From contig CAVPTO010000003.1 in NCBI GenBank assembly GCA_963708675.1, forward strand, positions 3,595,477 to 3,659,476: 64,000 bases of DNA, given 5' to 3'. The position numbers and the translations under genes are program-made. Below, piece after piece: positions 18,638 through 39,776 of this stretch. Position 1 is the first letter of the stretch. Each line of letters opens with the position of its first letter. The stretch is from an uncultured Planctomycetota bacterium (lineage in GTDB: Bacteria; Planctomycetota; Planctomycetia; Pirellulales; PNKZ01). The notes below the pieces were generated by a model, which saw nothing but the letters and a program-made list of their open reading frames with translations, was not told the DNA's origin and did no database searches.

Positions 18638-18698
18638 TCACCACATTCATGAATACCACGTTGTTGATCGGACGCATTCGTTTAGCCGGCATCGCTCA

Positions 18699-18750
18699 CT
18701 TAGCCGCCGCGTCCACGCGGCGGATCCGGGTTGTGGACAACCCGGCTAAG
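18699..18750. repeat. CTTAG-tagged REP doublet (minimal non-autonomous element) between the two RND genes
   Basis: CTTAG-CCGCCGCG-TCCA-CGCGGCGG-AT-CCGGGTTG-TGGA-CAACCCGG-CTAAG, the same architecture as the RAYT-flanking REPs. Confidence 0.85.
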
Positions 18751-36486: not shown

Positions 36487-36678
36487 CGAATCAACTCCTC
36501 TCGAAGCGATACTGTCCCCCGCCCGTGTGGCCATGCACATGGGATGCCAATCGGCATCACTGGAACCTTAAAACGTCGACATGCGTCGAAGGGCTACTTA
36601 CGATGCGTGGTATGCACCGGCCCGCAAGTTGTGGCTCGCGAATGGCTGGTGTTGGGCACTCTTTGCGGAGATTCGGCA

Positions 36679-39015
36679 ATGCGACTTGCGCCAGTTGTCA
36701 TCTCATCGATCGTGTCGTCGCTGCTTGTGCTTTCGTGGGATGTGACGCTATCACGCGCGGCCGATGACACCATCCTTTTCTCCGACGATTTCTCGACACT
36801 CAAATCCGGGTGGGGCAAGGCCGACGACACGCGCGGCGTCGAAGGCAACAAGCTGCTGATCAAGCTGAAGCCTGACCTGACGTTCCGCATTCTGTACACC
36901 ACTTCGAAGTTCGGCGACATCGACGCGCGGATGAAAGTCGCCCAACAAAGCGGCGACAACAACCAGAGCGCGGGTCTCGTCTTCTGGGGGACCGATCGCG
37001 AGAACTGCTATGCGGCCTTGATGCAGTCGGATGGCGGGTTCTACGTCGTGCGTCGCATGAACTCGCAGTGGCTGACGCCCGTCGTCATTCGAGTGCGCGA
37101 TGAAGTCACGAAAGGCGTTGGCCAAACGAACGAGATGCGCGTCGTCACCAGCGGCCGCACCGCGACGGTTTATATCAACGACAAACAGGTGACGACGTTC
37201 GTTGGCTTTCCTCCGCCGGGTGTGTGCGAAATCGGCGTGATGTGCGAATCGGGCAAGCAGCCCGCCACTTGGGCGTTCTCGGAACTCACCGTGCGTCGCG
37301 GCCCCGCGCCATCGCCGAGCGGCACACACGACGAATCGCTGCAGTTTTCCGACAACTTCCATGTGCTCGACCCGTCGTGGGGCGACCCTGGTGATTCGAA
37401 GACGGTGCGAGATGACAAGTTTTTAGTGACGCTGAAGCCGAATCTGTATCACCGCACCATCTATCAGGGATCGCTGTTCGACAACGCCGACGTTCGTCTT
37501 AAGATCACCGAAGAAAAAGGAGACGAGAACCAACCGGCCGGGATCGTGTTTTGGGCCATCGACCGTGACAACTATTACGCTGCGCTGATTCAGGCCGACG
37601 GCTCGTTCTATGTGTTGCGACAAGTCAAGGGGAAATCGTTGTTCCCCGTGTCGATGAGTATCCGCGACGAGATTCGCAAAGGCCTTGGTCAAACGAACGA
37701 GATGCGAGTCGTCACCAAGGGACGCTCGGCGATGGTCGTCGTCAACGATAAGCCCCTCGTGGCGTTCGAGGGTTTTCCGCCGTCGGGCGGCAGTCGCATT
37801 GGCATACACGGCGAGTCGGGGGCGACCGACGGCGTGTGGGCGTTCTCCGATCTCGCGGTTTACAAGGGGCCGGTGACGCCGCCTTCGACGACTCCGACAG
37901 ACGATACGGTTCTGCTCGCCGATGACTTCGCGACGCTCGATCCCGCGTGGGGCCCCGAGACAACGTCGCGCAGCGTGAGCGATCACAAGCTGATGCTCAC
38001 CGCCAACGCCAACTCCGGGTTCTCCGACATCTATCAGGGAGCGTTGTTCGGCGATGTCGACATGAGCGTCAAGGTTGCCGCCACCAAAGGTTGGACCGAC
38101 CAGCTTGTCGGGCTTGTCTTTTGGGGCGTGAGCGGGCAGGACTACGCCGCGTTTGTCGTCAATCCGGCGGGGAATGTTTACGCGGGGCGCATCGTGAAGA
38201 ACCAATGGCAAGGGATGAACGTCGTCGACAAAGCGACGAGCACATTGAAAAAAGGGGCGGGCGAGATCAACGAGCTTCGCGTCGTGACGCACGACAAGAC
38301 CGCCGTGCTGATGGTCAACAACCAGATCGTTTACACGTACAAAGGCGAGCCGGCCGAGGGTGGAAGCAAGGTAGGGTTCTTCGTCGAGGCGAACAAAGAC
38401 CCCGTGGCGTGGGCGTTCTCGGAGTTCCGTGTGCGCACGCCGTTGGTGACGCTCGAGAACAGTGCGGGCCGCGCCGATGGCTTGCTGATGACCGATGATT
38501 TTCGTGCGCTCAACACCGCTTGGGCCACGAACAATGAGATCAAGCACGTCGCCGACAACAAGTTCTACATCACGGCCGAGCCGAACAGCGGTCGCACGTT
38601 TCTGTACGACAGTCGTTTCGGCGACGCCGACATTCGCGTGACCATCAACGAGACGCAGGGCAAACCCGACCGGCCGGCCGGCATCGCGTTTTGGGCCGAC
38701 AGCTACGACGCATATTTCCTGGCGACGATTCGACCCGACGGAACGGTCGAAGTCTCGCGACTGGCTGACGGCAAGTGGACGTACCCCGTCGATCTGAAGG
38801 ACCGCGCCGAGATTCGCCCAGGCGTAGGGGCGAGCAACGAGCTACGCGTCGTGACGGTCGGGCACTCGGCCATCGTGTATGTCAACGATAAGCAAGTCGC
38901 CGCGATCGAAGGGACCCCACCCGCCGCCGGCGGGAAGCTCGGCCTCCACGGCGGCAGCGGCGCCGAGAGCTACAGTTGGGCGTTCTCGAAACTGTCGGTT
39001 CGCAAGCCGAAGTGA
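36679..39015 (+). CDS. Secreted protein made of four tandem ~190-aa beta-sandwich (ConA/DUF1080-like) domains
   Basis: Signal peptide. Each of four repeats begins xDDF..L...WG and contains AGLVFW, NE(M/L)RVVT and VYxNDKQV. Confidence 0.75.
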   Translation: MRLAPVVISSIVSSLLVLSWDVTLSRAADDTILFSDDFSTLKSGWGKADDTRGVEGNKLLIKLKPDLTFRILYTTSKFGDIDARMKVAQQSGDNNQSAGLVFWGTDRENCYAALMQSDGGFYVVRRMNSQWLTPVVIRVRDEVTKGVGQTNEMRVVTSGRTATVYINDKQVTTFVGFPPPGVCEIGVMCESGKQPATWAFSELTVRRGPAPSPSGTHDESLQFSDNFHVLDPSWGDPGDSKTVRDDKFLVTLKPNLYHRTIYQGSLFDNADVRLKITEEKGDENQPAGIVFWAIDRDNYYAALIQADGSFYVLRQVKGKSLFPVSMSIRDEIRKGLGQTNEMRVVTKGRSAMVVVNDKPLVAFEGFPPSGGSRIGIHGESGATDGVWAFSDLAVYKGPVTPPSTTPTDDTVLLADDFATLDPAWGPETTSRSVSDHKLMLTANANSGFSDIYQGALFGDVDMSVKVAATKGWTDQLVGLVFWGVSGQDYAAFVVNPAGNVYAGRIVKNQWQGMNVVDKATSTLKKGAGEINELRVVTHDKTAVLMVNNQIVYTYKGEPAEGGSKVGFFVEANKDPVAWAFSEFRVRTPLVTLENSAGRADGLLMTDDFRALNTAWATNNEIKHVADNKFYITAEPNSGRTFLYDSRFGDADIRVTINETQGKPDRPAGIAFWADSYDAYFLATIRPDGTVEVSRLADGKWTYPVDLKDRAEIRPGVGASNELRVVTVGHSAIVYVNDKQVAAIEGTPPAAGGKLGLHGGSGAESYSWAFSKLSVRKPK

Positions 39016-39020
39016 CGTTG

Positions 39021-39045
39021 CTTAGCCGGGCCGTCCACGGCCCGG
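39021..39045 (+). repeat. Left CTTAG REP flanking the RAYT
   Basis: CTTAG-CCGGGCCG-TCCA-CGGCCCGG. Confidence 0.88.
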
Positions 39046-39676
39046 TGTGGGAGGGTCACCCGTGCGATCCCATCATCGCTTATCACGTCGTCTGGGGTGC
39101 CTACGGATTTTGGCTGCCCAACGACCCGCGGGGTTCGTGGTCGAAAGACGTTTGGTCGCCGCGTCTGATGCGCTTCGGACCGCCGCGACGTGTTAATACT
39201 CGCAGCTCGCGCGCGGCCGTTTCGCATGACCTCGCGCTGCGACGAGCCGCCAAGCGCGAACTGATGCGTGAGCCGATTCGTTTCACTGGCGTCCAAGCGC
39301 GTGCCATTGGCCACGGCATTGCCGACGTCACGAGTCGCTATGCGCTTCCGGTCTATGTCGCCGCGGTCATGCCCGATCATGTGCACTTGGTGTTCGCGCG
39401 CAAGGCGGTTCATGCGGAGACGTGGGTCGGCTATTTCAAACGGGCTGCGACGAAAGCAATGGTTGCTGAAAAGTTGCACCCGTTTGCCGGTGATCGAAGA
39501 CCTGATGGCAGCCTGCCGACCGTTTGGCGCAGGGAGGTTGGAAGGTGTTTTTACATAGTGATGCCGAGATCAGCCGGGAGATTGAATACGTCGAGAAGAA
39601 TCCGAGACGCGCGGGTTTGAGGGCGCCGCACTGGTCGTTTGTTAGCCCGTATCCGCCCTGTGGACAGGGCGGCTAA
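39045..39676 (+). mobile_element. REP-associated HUH (Y1) tyrosine transposase, RAYT/IS200-like; one-base frameshift at ~39526
   Basis: IIAYHVVWGAYGFWLPNDPRGSW and MPDHVHLV (HUH). After a -1 shift it reads WAQGGWKVFL...IEYVEKNP..AGL...W.FV, with the stop inside the right REP. Confidence 0.85.
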
Positions 39677-39677
39677 G
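39653..39677 (-). repeat. Right CTTAG REP flanking the RAYT (inverted)
   Basis: Minus strand reads CTTAG-CCGCCCTG-TCCA-CAGGGCGG. Confidence 0.88.
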
Positions 39678-39776
39678 CGTTGTGTTTGGGATGGTTGTTG
39701 CGTGACAGCGCGTCACGCTTCGATTACGCTCGGCGGGACGTATTTGCTCGCCACGCCCACCTCGCGGAATCTCGCC

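What the first reader, a model, noticed from the sequence alone, without database searches (positions are those of the whole stretch)
39021..39677. Compact RAYT-like HUH transposase bracketed by CTTAG hairpins with fully covarying stems
A 657-bp unit has the form CTTAG-hairpin > transposase < hairpin-CTAAG. The transposase's first in-frame GTG and its stop codon both overlap the REPs. All four hairpins of this family in the window share a CTTAG tag, an 8-bp stem with fixed CCG/CGG base and G-C closing pair, and a TCCA loop. The middle 4 bp differ in every copy (GGCC, CCCT, CCGC, GGTT) yet always pair. This suggests recognition by shape plus tag and loop rather than by stem sequence. Well-studied RAYT-linked REPs carry GTAG/GTGG tags and near-invariant stems, so a TTAG-tagged, sequence-free-stem system in a planctomycete may be an undescribed RAYT/REP class. 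It also looks more like an autonomous IS200-like cassette than a domesticated locus.
Basis: partly seen in the sequence, partly recalled or inferred. Interest (0 to 1): 0.82.

Follow-up and report, generated by a model that had tools for sequence, protein, structure and literature searches.

The report
Planctomycete REP hairpins with their RAYT gene
This is a real but fairly ordinary "REP/RAYT" system: one small (and here apparently broken) DNA-cutting enzyme gene bracketed by two short hairpin repeats, of which about 24 gene-less pairs are scattered in the genome. Its only unusual feature is a TTAG rather than GTAG recognition tag, shared by a large planctomycete branch of this enzyme family.

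Summary
Four exact CTTAGCCG-N4-GTCCAC-N4'-CGG hairpins lie in the window (0 expected). Two of them, inverted, bracket a Y1 HUH transposase gene at 39021-39677.

Genome-wide there is one such cassette plus 24 gene-less head-to-head doublets, almost all between genes. This is the RAYT/REPIN pattern, not an autonomous IS200-like element.

The stems are not sequence-free. They fall into two classes, A (CCGCC[G/C]C) and B (CCGGGT[C/T]), one on each side of the gene and of every doublet. Across genomes, however, four of the eight stem pairs covary while tag and loop stay fixed.

Orthologues at 55-65% identity keep the same architecture. Their right hairpin is often translated as the C-terminal PPRGRGG*.

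The wider clade has more than 3,800 homologues, which JGI names RayT, and scores below the NCBIfam and Pfam cut-offs. It is usually flanked by TTAGC-tagged hairpins (14 of 20 loci against a 6.6% background). I found this tag in neither of the two published REP/Y1-transposase surveys that I read.

The window's gene carries two frameshifts that related Illumina contigs lack, and a 93%-identical relative has a nonsense codon. The copy may therefore be dead or mis-assembled.

Verdict: a new tag variant of a known kind of system, of moderate interest.

The parts
39021..39045 (+). Left REP hairpin of the cassette, class B, unique variant GGCC. Tag CTTAG 39021-39025; stem 39026-39033 pairs with 39038-39045; loop TCCA 39034-39037.
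   Evidence: Exact pattern match. ssDNA fold -11.5 kcal/mol, z -4.2. The same hairpin sits at the same place in relative L036.
39062..39676 (+). RAYT-like Y1 HUH transposase gene, about 205 codons once the two indels are allowed for. As assembled it is split between frame 0 (open from 38976, to about 39527) and the frame of 39524-39676.
   Evidence: ORFs. NCBIfam REP_Tyr_transpos 46 bits, IS200 16.5 bits; Pfam Y1_Tnp 19 bits. Full-length homologues of about 200 aa cover 93-96% of the joined protein. Native start inferred from L036 and Illumina contigs.
39063..39064 (+). First indel. The window lacks a GC dinucleotide directly after the native start codon (GTG-CGC-GAT in relatives).
   Evidence: 'GC put in behind 39063' in contigs of three metagenome runs, one of them otherwise identical to the window. 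L036 alignment.
39378..39386 (+). HUH motif (His-Val-His, within MPDHVHLV).
   Evidence: Translation. H106 and H108 are invariant in 79 homologues. The motif aligns with the HUH of ISDra2 TnpA and of E. coli RayT.
39525..39527 (+). Second indel. The window has TTTGGCGC where relatives have TTTGGGCGC. The missing G shifts the frame upstream of the catalytic Tyr.
   Evidence: 'G put in behind 39525'. L036 has GGG. Homologues read ...VWAxGGWKV... across this site.
39587..39604 (+). Catalytic tyrosine motif Y-V-E-K-N-P (Tyr codon 39587-39589), in the post-frameshift frame.
   Evidence: Translation. Y176, N180 and P181 are invariant in 79 homologues. The motif aligns with the Y115...N119 region of E. 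coli RayT. Y-x-x-x-N-P is the class 2 (RAYT) signature in Table 1 of PMC6006769.
39653..39677 (-). Right REP hairpin of the cassette, class A, unique variant CCCT. It encodes the last residues PPCGQGG, and the stop TAA (39674-39676) lies inside the CTAAG tag.
   Evidence: Exact pattern match. Fold -10.0 kcal/mol. The equivalent hairpin is translated as PPRGRGG* in 11 of 79 close homologues and is seen in the DNA of L001, L004, L033 and L035.
18699..18750 (.). Gene-less REP doublet: class A (CCGC) on the + strand, AT spacer, class B (GGTT) on the - strand. It is one of 24 in the genome.
   Evidence: It folds as a Y-shaped ssDNA structure at -21 kcal/mol, z -5.8. A 92%-identical relative carries the REP at the same place.

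Best explanation
**What it is.** The 657-bp unit is the RAYT gene of a REP/RAYT system (a 'REPtron') in a Pirellulales planctomycete. It is a single-copy Y1 HUH/tyrosine single-strand DNA endonuclease gene sitting between two inverted REP hairpins, class B on the 5' side and class A on the 3' side.

**The dispersed repeats.** The same two hairpins, joined head to head by a 2-3-nt spacer, occur at 24 other, mostly intergenic places. These 53-nt doublets have the form of REPINs or BIMEs. About half extend to an approximately 110-nt nested palindrome. They are the non-autonomous units that the enzyme is expected to mobilise.

**Inferred mechanism, by analogy with E. coli TnpA-REP (PMC3479197).**
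1. On single-stranded DNA the enzyme binds a folded hairpin together with its 5' tag.
2. The tag here is (C)TTAGCC instead of GTAG, but it keeps the A and G that in E. coli specify cleavage at a CT dinucleotide. A CT is present at the outer edge of every CTTAG.
3. The Tyr of YVEKNP then makes a 5'-phosphotyrosine link at a metal site built by His-Val-His.
4. Recognition is by tag, loop and hairpin shape. Stem letters are free to covary, but in any one genome they are fixed as two classes.

**State of this copy.** As assembled, the window's gene is inactivated by two frameshifts. Either the system is decaying in this strain, or the assembly has indel errors there.

**Shown:** the anatomy, copy numbers, covariation, family relationship and conservation of the architecture in orthologues. 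**Inferred:** binding, the cleavage site and mobilisation.
For: **Anatomy and copy number**
- Four exact hairpins in the window, none expected.
- 35 strict copies genome-wide, which make 24 doublets plus one cassette. Nearly every apparent singleton has a degenerate partner.
- The cassette read on the minus strand is A(+)-gene-B(-), the same order as every doublet, A(+)-NNN-B(-).
- On a crude ORF map, 16 of the 24 doublets overlap no long open frame. Most of the other eight only touch a frame's edge, and two (C3:1375498, C3:5826238) lie well inside one.

**Protein**
- HUH and Y-x-x-x-N-P motifs are present.
- All 79 close homologues hit NCBIfam REP_Tyr_transpos (best 1.5e-16), more strongly than IS200 (best 2.6e-8).
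- An AlphaFold model of orthologue P0002 (pLDDT 86.9) matches only IS200/IS605 TnpA structures and TnpA-REP 4ER8.
- hhalign against E. coli RayT aligns the HUH, W and Y motifs.
- There is a single gene of this type in the genome. Three paralogues at 32-36% identity each have different flanking repeats.

**Orthologues**
- Orthologues at 55-65% identity (L001, L004, L033, L035) and the syntenic relative L036 keep the architecture CTTAGCC-hairpin > gene < hairpin-GGCTAAG, with loop G(T/G)CCAC and different, compensated B stems.
- The right hairpin is translated as PPRGRGG* in 11 of 79 homologues. These are clustered on the tree: 7 changes against 11.4 in shuffles, 0 of 500 shuffles as low.

**Covariation and tag**
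- Four of eight stem pairs have changes on both sides. The covariation score is 0.411, against 0.135 shuffled (0 of 500) and at most 0.164 when slid.
- TTAGC lies within 200 nt upstream in 14 of 20 loci of the clade, and GCTAA downstream in 14 of 20. The background is 6.6%.
- In this genome TTAG is followed by a perfect hairpin 295 times, 33.6 per 1000 occurrences against about 2 per 1000 for control words.

**Phyletic link**
- Six of 41 related genomes have at least 5 copies of the REP family (G000, G001, G002, G007, G010, G029). Three more have a single match, as does the backwards control in several genomes.
- In G000 and G010 a close orthologue bracketed by CTTAG hairpins is present.
Against: - No biochemical evidence exists for this clade. 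Binding, the cleavage site and mobilisation are all by analogy.
- The protein scores below every curated cut-off: NF047646 46-48 bits against 80, PF01797 19 bits against 23. The fold search does not separate RAYT from IS200.
- The residues that contact GTAG in E. coli are only partly conserved. W94 and W99 are kept, while Q95, E100 and H101 are replaced (compared with PMC6006769 and PMC3479197).
- The gene is broken in this assembly. It carries an in-frame TGA in the nearest relative, L036. The REP population is small (24 doublets), and about half of the doublets have a degenerate arm. The system may therefore be inactive here.
- The gene-repeat link is imperfect. G029 has 22 REP copies, but its best homologue is flanked by a different hairpin family. 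G002, a complete genome of the same genus, has 5 copies and no orthologue.
- No clean empty site was found for any doublet.
Confidence: 0.82

Rival explanations
1. This is an autonomous IS200/IS605-type insertion sequence. The 657-bp cassette itself transposes, using its two end hairpins as left and right ends. The doublets are MITE-like deletion derivatives of it.
For: - The doublets have exactly the order of the cassette's ends with the gene removed.
- The fold is shared with IS608, ISDra2 and IS200 TnpA.
- Orthologues in other genera are not in the same gene neighbourhood, and same-genus genomes lack the gene. That could mean horizontal movement.
Against: - There is only one cassette per genome against 24 doublets.
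- The end hairpins are inverted, not in direct orientation on one strand as in IS200/IS605.
- The Tyr motif is Y-x-x-x-N-P (class 2, RAYT), not Y-x-x-x-Q (class 1, IS200).
- The IS200 model scores 16-28 bits against a cut-off of 55, while the genome's true IS200 scores 83.9.
- There is no tnpB next to the gene.
- There are no copies on 72,556 plasmids.
- The locus is syntenic in the 93%-identical relative L036.
Confidence: 0.07
2. This is a dead relic. The RAYT gene is a pseudogene in this lineage, and the hairpin doublets are a decaying or host-co-opted population that no longer moves. They might serve, for example, as mRNA 3' stabilisers or protein-binding sites. This differs from the main explanation only on present activity.
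For: - The window's gene has two frameshifts.
- Three of the four indels seen against Illumina contigs over 12 kb fall within 700 bp at this gene, as expected under relaxed selection.
- The nearest relative, L036, has TGA in the invariant GFWLPNDPRGS motif.
- Only 24 doublets exist, about half with one degenerate arm.
- The doublet at 18699 is shared with a 92% relative, so it is old.
- Genomes G001, G002 and G007 keep a few REPs without an orthologue.
Against: - Near-identical metagenome contigs carry the intact frame at both indel sites. The breaks may therefore be assembly errors of a long-read-like MAG with 5 contigs.
- Several doublets, with their flanks, are identical to each other, for example C3:369355, 513306 and 3473755. 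That suggests fairly recent copying.
- A doublet is present or absent next to the cassette between the window and L036.
Confidence: 0.4
3. The hairpins are RNA-level or protein-binding regulatory palindromes, such as terminators or attenuators, that merely happen to flank a transposase-like gene. There is no enzymatic relation between gene and repeats.
For: Many doublets sit 9-30 nt after the 3' end of a gene, some between convergent genes. REPs in enterobacteria are known to have such secondary roles (abstract of PMC3479197, listed).
Against: - The gene-hairpin architecture is conserved in orthologues down to 55% identity, with the hairpin even inside the coding end.
- Different subclades of the enzyme carry different hairpin families that all bear the TTAGC tag.
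- No T-run follows the hairpins.
- No Rfam family matches anywhere in the window.
Confidence: 0.04

Closest known systems
E. coli REPtron: RayT/TnpA-REP (yafM, PDB 4ER8) with GTAG-tagged Y and Z REPs organised in BIMEs
   Same: - A single-copy Y1 HUH/Tyr enzyme gene flanked by inverted REP hairpins.
- Hairpins carry a 5' unpaired tag.
- Two stem classes alternate in inverted pairs.
- The Tyr motif is Y-x-x-x-N-P.
- The tag keeps the A-G that dictates CT cleavage in E. coli (PMC3479197).
- The fold matches 4ER8, and the motifs align by hhalign.
   Different: - The tag is (C)TTAGCC, not GTAG.
- The hairpins are short, perfect 8-bp stems without the bulge of E. coli REPs.
- The protein has an insertion of about 50 residues after strand 1, with an invariant YGFWLPNDPRGS motif.
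- Q95, E100 and H101 of E. coli are replaced.
- The score against NCBIfam NF047646 is 46-48 bits, below the cut-off of 80.
- The right REP lies inside the coding end.
- The population is only about 24 doublets.
REPIN/RAYT systems of Pseudomonas (Bertels and Rainey 2011; PMC3116915, PMC3337134)
   Same: The repeats occur as inverted doublets rather than singlets. There is one cognate single-copy RAYT per REPIN family. Several RAYT/REP pairs coexist in one genome. A long form folds into one long hairpin.
   Different: The spacer between the two REPs is only 2-3 nt. The two REPs of a doublet belong to different stem classes. The population is tens of copies, not hundreds. The phylum and the tag are different.
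GTAG- and CGTC-tagged REP superfamilies (Di Nocera et al. 2013, PMC3733652), including GTAG-20 and GTAG-21 of Rhodopirellula baltica
   Same: These are short tagged stem-loops, mostly paired in opposite orientation. Several families occur per genome. Some sit inside larger palindromes or at ORF ends. Planctomycetes are already known to hold many tyrosine transposase genes with flanking repeats.
   Different: That survey reports variation of GTAG at positions 2-3 and GTGG. It does not report a T at position 1, and 'TTAG' occurs neither in its text nor in its held supplements. This genome also has a canonical GTAG family, CTGTAG-GGAACGCC..., with about 90 copies, separate from the TTAG families.
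Class 3 TnpA-Y1 of Quentin et al. 2018 (PMC6006769): Planctomycetes, Acidobacteria and Proteobacteria, with 'atypical secondary structures' bearing a CnGA foot
   Same: It is a planctomycete-rich, REPtron-like set of Y1 genes flanked by non-canonical hairpins. The W motif is W[TA] (here W-A, W-T or W-S).
   Different: Class 3 has Y-x-x-x-x-Q and NHVH with a CnGA foot. Here the motifs are Y-x-x-x-N-P and DHVH with a TTAG foot. The defining features are therefore not met.
IS200/IS605 family (IS200, IS608, ISDra2)
   Same: They share the HUH/Tyr fold, single-strand hairpin ends with a short 5' guide, and the same chemistry.
   Different: In IS200/IS605 the ends are in direct orientation, copies are multiple and identical, the motif is Y-x-x-x-Q, and tnpB is often present. 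None of these holds here.

Membership tests
RAYT / TnpA-REP (class 2 TnpA-Y1) | HUH motif plus a catalytic Tyr in a Y-[IV]-x-x-N-P motif | tested here: met
   DHVH at 39375-39386. YVEKNP at 39587-39604, in the post-frameshift frame. H106, H108, Y176, N180 and P181 are invariant in 79 homologues. Class 2 signatures are in Table 1 of PMC6006769.
RAYT / TnpA-REP (class 2 TnpA-Y1) | Score at or above the curated cut-off of NCBIfam NF047646 (80 bits) or Pfam PF01797 (23 bits) | tested here: not met
   46.2 bits (joined protein) and 48.5 bits (P0002) against NF047646. 19.1 bits against PF01797. All 79 homologues do hit NF047646 better than IS200.
RAYT / TnpA-REP (class 2 TnpA-Y1) | Single copy per genome, flanked by REPs in inverted orientation | tested here: met
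   There is one gene of this type in G000. Its paralogues are at most 36% identical and have other flanks. The inverted hairpins lie at 39021(+) and 39677(-). The arrangement is the same in L001, L004, L033, L035 and L036.
RAYT / TnpA-REP (class 2 TnpA-Y1) | The cognate REPs carry a 5' GTAG or GTGG tetranucleotide | tested here: not met
   The tag is CTTAG(CC) in all 35 copies. The clade-wide tag is TTAGC. Only positions 2-4 (TAG) agree with GTAG.
RAYT / TnpA-REP (class 2 TnpA-Y1) | The enzyme binds and cleaves its REP as single-stranded DNA | not testable with these tools
   This needs purified protein and oligonucleotides.
REPIN / BIME-type repeat population | Dispersed, mostly extragenic copies that occur mainly as inverted pairs of REPs | tested here: met
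   24 loci, all of them doublets of A(+) and B(-) with a 2-3-nt spacer. On a crude ORF map, 16 of 24 overlap no long open frame and most of the rest only touch a frame's edge.
IS200/IS605 insertion sequence | TnpA above the NF033573 cut-off, with a Y-x-x-x-Q motif | tested here: not met
   16.5 bits against a cut-off of 55, and the motif is Y-x-x-x-N-P. The genome's real IS200 at C3:3125650-3125997 scores 83.9 bits.
IS200/IS605 insertion sequence | Several near-identical full-length copies, with left and right end hairpins on the same strand | tested here: not met
   There is one cassette only, and its hairpins are on opposite strands.
Class 3 TnpA-Y1 (Quentin et al. 2018) | Y-x-x-x-x-Q motif, NHVH, and flanking structures with a CnGA foot | tested here: not met
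   Here the features are YVEKNP, DHVH and a TTAG foot. The class 3 definition is taken.

The most novel reading that the evidence does not exclude
The window's gene belongs to a large RAYT clade centred on the Planctomycetota: at least 3,800 sequences, marked by a roughly 50-residue insertion with an invariant YGFWLPNDPRGS loop directly after strand 1.

In this reading the clade has switched its guide from GTAG to TTAGC(C). Within that shared tag it has radiated into many mutually exclusive hairpin specificities. At least four TTAGC-tagged families, plus a separate GTAG family, coexist in this one genome.

The loop would be the tag reader, since it lies just after strand 1, the N-terminal region that holds R21 of E. 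coli TnpA-REP. If so, the clade is an unstudied, naturally diversified set of sequence- and shape-specific single-strand DNA endonucleases. It would also form a third or fourth REP superfamily beside GTAG, CGTC and CnGA.
Probability: 0.45. Interest if true: 0.55.

Novelty: new variant of a known kind. Interest (0 to 1): 0.4.

Why it matters
REP/RAYT systems have been worked out almost entirely in gamma-proteobacteria, with the GTAG tag.

This case shows the same organisation in Pirellulales with a one-base-different tag (TTAGCC). The hairpins are perfect and short, and their stems covary between genomes. The hairpin forms the last codons of the gene. The enzyme subfamily falls below current annotation cut-offs.

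That gives a natural experiment on how Y1 HUH enzymes read tag, loop and shape. HUH endonucleases are used as sequence-specific tags that link proteins covalently to single-stranded DNA. It would also explain a good share of the short palindromic repeats that fill intergenic spacers in planctomycete genomes.

It does not reveal a new kind of mobile element.

Tried and rejected
1. **A gene-less allele that was not one.** I first read a 151-nt metagenome contig joining 39045 to 39652 as a RAYT-less allele of the locus. The alignment with the syntenic relative L036 showed instead that it is an extra REP doublet. That doublet lies between the upstream gene and the cassette's left hairpin in related strains.
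2. **Empty sites.** Same-genus genomes G001 and G002 do not keep the left-hand synteny. The doublet at 18699 is also present in a 92% relative. No clean empty site was obtained.
3. **Fold search.** The PDB search confirms the Y1 fold, but ISDra2, IS608, IS200 and TnpA-REP score alike. It cannot decide between RAYT and IS200.
4. **A sequence search of PDB chains** gave only E about 0.3 to ISDra2.
5. **Small tree.** The tree with E. coli RayT, the genome's IS200 and its TIR-flanked paralogue was poorly resolved, with long branches. Three loci had also been translated on the wrong strand. It supports only one point: the GTTAGCCGCGACGCGCAGCGG-flanked genes form a clade.
6. **The outer module TWAGAAGGNGTTTCAGAAC as an insertion target.** No copies without a doublet were found. 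It is therefore part of a long form of the element.
7. **Plasmids.** No homologue was found among 72,556 records.
8. **Rfam.** There is no match in the window.
9. **Supplements of PMC6006769.** They hold no planctomycete names, so the published subclass of this clade could not be read off.
Full report
**Observation**

The pattern CTTAGCCG-N4-GTCCAC-N4-CGG occurs four times in the window, each without mismatch. The sites are 18699-18723(+), 18726-18750(-), 39021-39045(+) and 39653-39677(-). None occurred in 100 dinucleotide-preserving shuffles. In all four the middle four bases pair.

As single-stranded DNA the two hairpins around the gene fold at -11.5 and -10.0 kcal/mol (z -4.2 and -4.5). The doublet at 18699 folds into a Y-shaped structure at -21 kcal/mol, in which the two tags also pair.

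Between 39045 and 39677 lies a transposase-like reading frame whose stop, TAA at 39674-39676, is inside the CTAAG tag.

**The gene**

As assembled, the gene is split. Frame 0 carries MPDHVHLV, with the HUH motif at 39378-39386, and runs to about 39527. The catalytic part, EIEYVEKNPRRAGL (Tyr codon 39587-39589), is in the frame of 39524-39676.

Joining the two parts at TTTGG|GCGC gives a protein of about 205 residues. Full-length homologues of about 200 residues cover 93-96% of it.

Contigs of moss-metagenome runs differ from the window in two ways. They carry an extra G behind 39525, which restores the frame. They also carry an extra GC behind 39063, in three runs. One of these contigs is otherwise identical to the window.

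Scaffold L036 is 93% identical and syntenic, with the same 3-keto-disaccharide-hydrolase-like gene upstream. It agrees with those contigs at both sites and starts the protein with ATG-CGC-GAT, giving MRDPIIAYH.

Over 12 kb there are only four indels between the window and these contigs, and three of them lie in 39063-39743. The contigs cover the region only patchily, so this contrast is rough. L036 in turn has an in-frame TGA in the invariant GFWLPNDPRGS motif.

So this gene is decaying in at least one member of the species group. In the window it is either decaying too or locally mis-assembled. I cannot tell which without the reads.

**Genome-wide picture**

The whole genome (6.7 Mb, 5 contigs) holds 35 strict copies and 45 with one mismatch. 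Printed with their flanks, nearly every apparent singleton has a degenerate partner. There are 24 head-to-head doublets and one gene-bearing cassette.

The hairpins fall into two classes:
- Class A is CCGCC(G/C)C...
- Class B is CCGGGT(C/T)...
- Every doublet is A(+), a 2-3-nt spacer, then B(-).
- The cassette read on the minus strand is A(+), gene, B(-). It carries private variants, CCCT for A and GGCC for B.

The stems are therefore not sequence-free. Six perfect variants exist in two classes, arranged like the Y and Z REPs of enterobacterial BIMEs.

About half of the doublets extend outwards by an inverted module, CT(A/T)AGAAGGNGTTTCAGAACCTG. This gives a nested palindrome of about 110 nt that folds at -38.8 kcal/mol (z -8.4). 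Good matches to this module almost all lie next to these REPs, a few lie beside another repeat, and none forms an empty palindrome. I take it as part of a long form, not a pre-existing target.

On a crude ORF map, 16 of the 24 doublets overlap no long open frame, and many sit 9-30 nt after a gene end. Most of the other eight only touch a frame's edge, and two lie well inside one.

**Protein family**

The joined protein scores as follows:

| Model | Score (bits) | Curated cut-off (bits) |
|---|---|---|
| NCBIfam REP_Tyr_transpos | 46 | 80 |
| NCBIfam IS200 | 16.5 | 55 |
| Pfam Y1_Tnp | 19 | 23 |

All 79 close homologues hit the RAYT model, with a best E-value of 1.5e-16. Of these, 74 hit the IS200 model, with a best of 2.6e-8.

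An AlphaFold model of orthologue P0002 (pLDDT 86.9) matches only IS200/IS605 TnpA structures and E. coli TnpA-REP 4ER8. The fold is right, but it does not separate the two families. Profile alignment with E. coli RayT lines up the HUH, W and Y motifs.

The Tyr motif Y-[VI]-x-x-N-P is the class 2 (RAYT) signature of Quentin et al. 2018. Class 1 (IS200) has Y-x-x-x-Q. Their planctomycete-rich class 3 has Y-x-x-x-x-Q with a CnGA foot. Neither fits here.

What sets the clade apart is an insertion of about 50 residues after strand 1. It contains an invariant Y-G-F-(W)-L-P-(N-D-P)-R-G-S motif and is modelled with low confidence.

The database search found 3,845 homologues. Many are named 'REP element-mobilizing transposase RayT' by JGI. 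The few with organism names are Pirellulales, Gemmataceae or other Planctomycetota. None lies on any of 72,556 plasmids.

**Other Y1 genes in the same genome**
- Three paralogues of this clade, at 32-36% identity, each with its own flanking repeat.
- One real IS200, scoring 83.9 bits.
- A TIR-flanked RAYT-like gene in two copies, one of them frameshifted.

**Link between gene and hairpins**

Orthologues at 55-65% identity keep the architecture. These are L001 (a Pirellulales MAG), L004 (G010), L033 (P0002) and L035 (P0015). Each has CTTAGCC-hairpin, gene, hairpin-GGCTAAG, with loop G(T/G)CCAC. Their left stems differ but are compensated, for example CCGCTCC/GAGCGGG.

The right hairpin CCGCCGCGTGGACGCGGCGGCTAA reads Pro-Pro-Arg-Gly-Arg-Gly-Gly-stop. 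Eleven of the 79 best homologues end in PRGRGG. They are clustered on a tree built without those residues: 7 changes against 11.4 in shuffles, with 0 of 500 shuffles as low.

More distant members are flanked by other hairpin families, such as GTTAGCCGCGACGCGCAGCGGAGCG and GTTTAGCCGCC..GCTTGC... Most of these also carry TTAGC. TTAGC lies within 200 nt upstream in 14 of 20 loci, and GCTAA downstream in 14 of 20. The background is 6.6%. The genes flanked by the GTTAGCCGCGACG family form a clade.

Among 41 related genomes, six hold at least 5 copies of the CTTAG/GTCCAC family. G007 has the loop variant GTCCTC. The link to a close orthologue is clear in G000 and G010. It is not clear in G029, G001, G002 or G007, where the genomes are incomplete or the gene may have been lost.

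On 46 distinct hairpin sequences from 10 genomes, four of the eight stem pairs show changes on both sides. The covariation score is 0.411, against 0.135 in shuffles (0 of 500) and at most 0.164 when the partner is slid. Tag and loop are nearly invariant.

**The tag in context**

In this genome TTAG is followed by a perfect hairpin of at least 7 bp 295 times. That is 33.6 per 1000 occurrences, against about 2 per 1000 for control words. These hairpins belong to at least four families, including GTTTAGC-CGGCGAGCTTGCTCGCCG with at least 47 copies.

The genome also has a canonical GTAG family, CTGTAG-GGAACGCC-CTCCGT-GGCGTTCC, with about 90 copies.

Di Nocera et al. 2013 describe the GTAG and CGTC superfamilies, including GTAG-20 and GTAG-21 in Rhodopirellula baltica. 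They report variation at tag positions 2-3. 'TTAG' does not occur in their text or held supplements.

In E. coli TnpA-REP only A3 and G4 of GTAG are free to pair, and they dictate cleavage at a CT (PMC3479197). TTAG keeps both bases, and each CTTAG offers a CT at the outer edge of the element. I therefore predict cleavage at CT. This is inference only.

**Mechanism and status**

The best reading is a RAYT/REP system. The enzyme binds tag plus hairpin on single-stranded DNA and moves the 53-110-nt doublets. It is not itself multiplied.

It is also how RAYTs are already thought to work.

The idea of an autonomous IS200-like cassette is not supported. There is one cassette against 24 doublets, the ends are inverted, the Tyr motif is the RAYT type, and there is no tnpB.

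Whether the system is alive in this strain is open. I put about 0.4 on the gene being truly dead here.

One sign of recent change was found. L036 has an extra doublet of about 66 bp next to the cassette that the window lacks.

**Novelty**

This is a new tag variant and an under-annotated subfamily of a known kind of system, so the interest is moderate.

Noticed in passing
L036:3660-3760 compared with window 39015-39021: The 93%-identical syntenic relative has an extra REP doublet (hairpin B, ATT, hairpin A) plus 'ctgaaacaaatcg' between the upstream gene and the cassette's left hairpin. The window lacks these ~66 bp, so a doublet has been gained or lost between close relatives. A 151-nt metagenome contig shows the same form.
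   Followed up: yes
G000 genome-wide (no copy checked in the window): A canonical GTAG-tagged REP family, CTGTAG-GGAACGCC-CTCCGT-GGCGTTCC, has about 90 perfect copies. Its enzyme was not identified. The only strong RAYT-model hit, at C3:5292473, is flanked by TIR-like repeats, not by these REPs.
   Followed up: partly
G000 genome-wide; window 18680-18690 holds one GTTTAGCCGGC next to the doublet: At least three further TTAGC-tagged hairpin families are present: GTTTAGC-CGGCGAGCTTGCTCGCCG with at least 47 copies, (G/C/T)GTTAGC-CGCGTCGCTTGCGACGCG with about 54, and long GGTTAG-CCGCGACGCGCCAGCGGAGCG palindromes with at least 26. None flanks a RAYT gene in this genome, but similar hairpins flank RAYT homologues in relatives (L005-L008, L012, L014). 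They may be orphan REP populations.
   Followed up: partly
G000:C3:5292473-5292838 and C3:2959260-2959624: There are two copies of a 232-aa RAYT-like gene (NHWH, YVERNA), one of them frameshifted. They are flanked by the inverted repeats GGCATCTAAACGGGACAGGTCTAA / TTAGACCTGTCCCGTTTA. This is an IS-like, TIR-flanked ('TIRYT'/group 1-like) element, distinct from the finding.
   Followed up: partly
G000:C3:3125650-3125997: A single bona fide IS200 transposase gene (83.9 bits, motif Y-I-D-Q-Q) is followed by the hairpin CCCAGGCCTAAAGGCCTGGG.
   Followed up: no
G000:C3:1463526-1464080, 4600368-4600913, 5620906-5621457: Three paralogues of the window's RAYT (32-36% identity) each have their own flanking repeats: CGCTTGCGGCTTAGC palindromes, TAAGCGCGAAACCGCAAGCGG long palindromes, and the direct repeat TCGCTTGCCTNTTCGCGG. 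The second has an in-frame TGA.
   Followed up: partly
window 36544-39015: The upstream gene encodes an 823-aa secreted-looking protein built of four tandem repeats of about 190 aa. Its counterpart in L036 carries a faint Pfam hit to 3-keto-disaccharide hydrolase (PF06439).
   Followed up: no
window 42166 and 39743: There are two further single-base indels between the window and near-identical Illumina contigs. The assembly may carry residual indel errors, so apparent frameshifts in this genome need read-level checking.
   Followed up: partly
G000:C3:5818928, 163268, 3231197, 3549485: The outer module of the long-form element (AGAAGGNGTTTCAGAAC) also lies next to a different repeat (cttctccc-ttcg-ggagaagg, the BoxC-like family noted by earlier agents). 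This hints at clusters of repeats or a shared flanking module.
   Followed up: no
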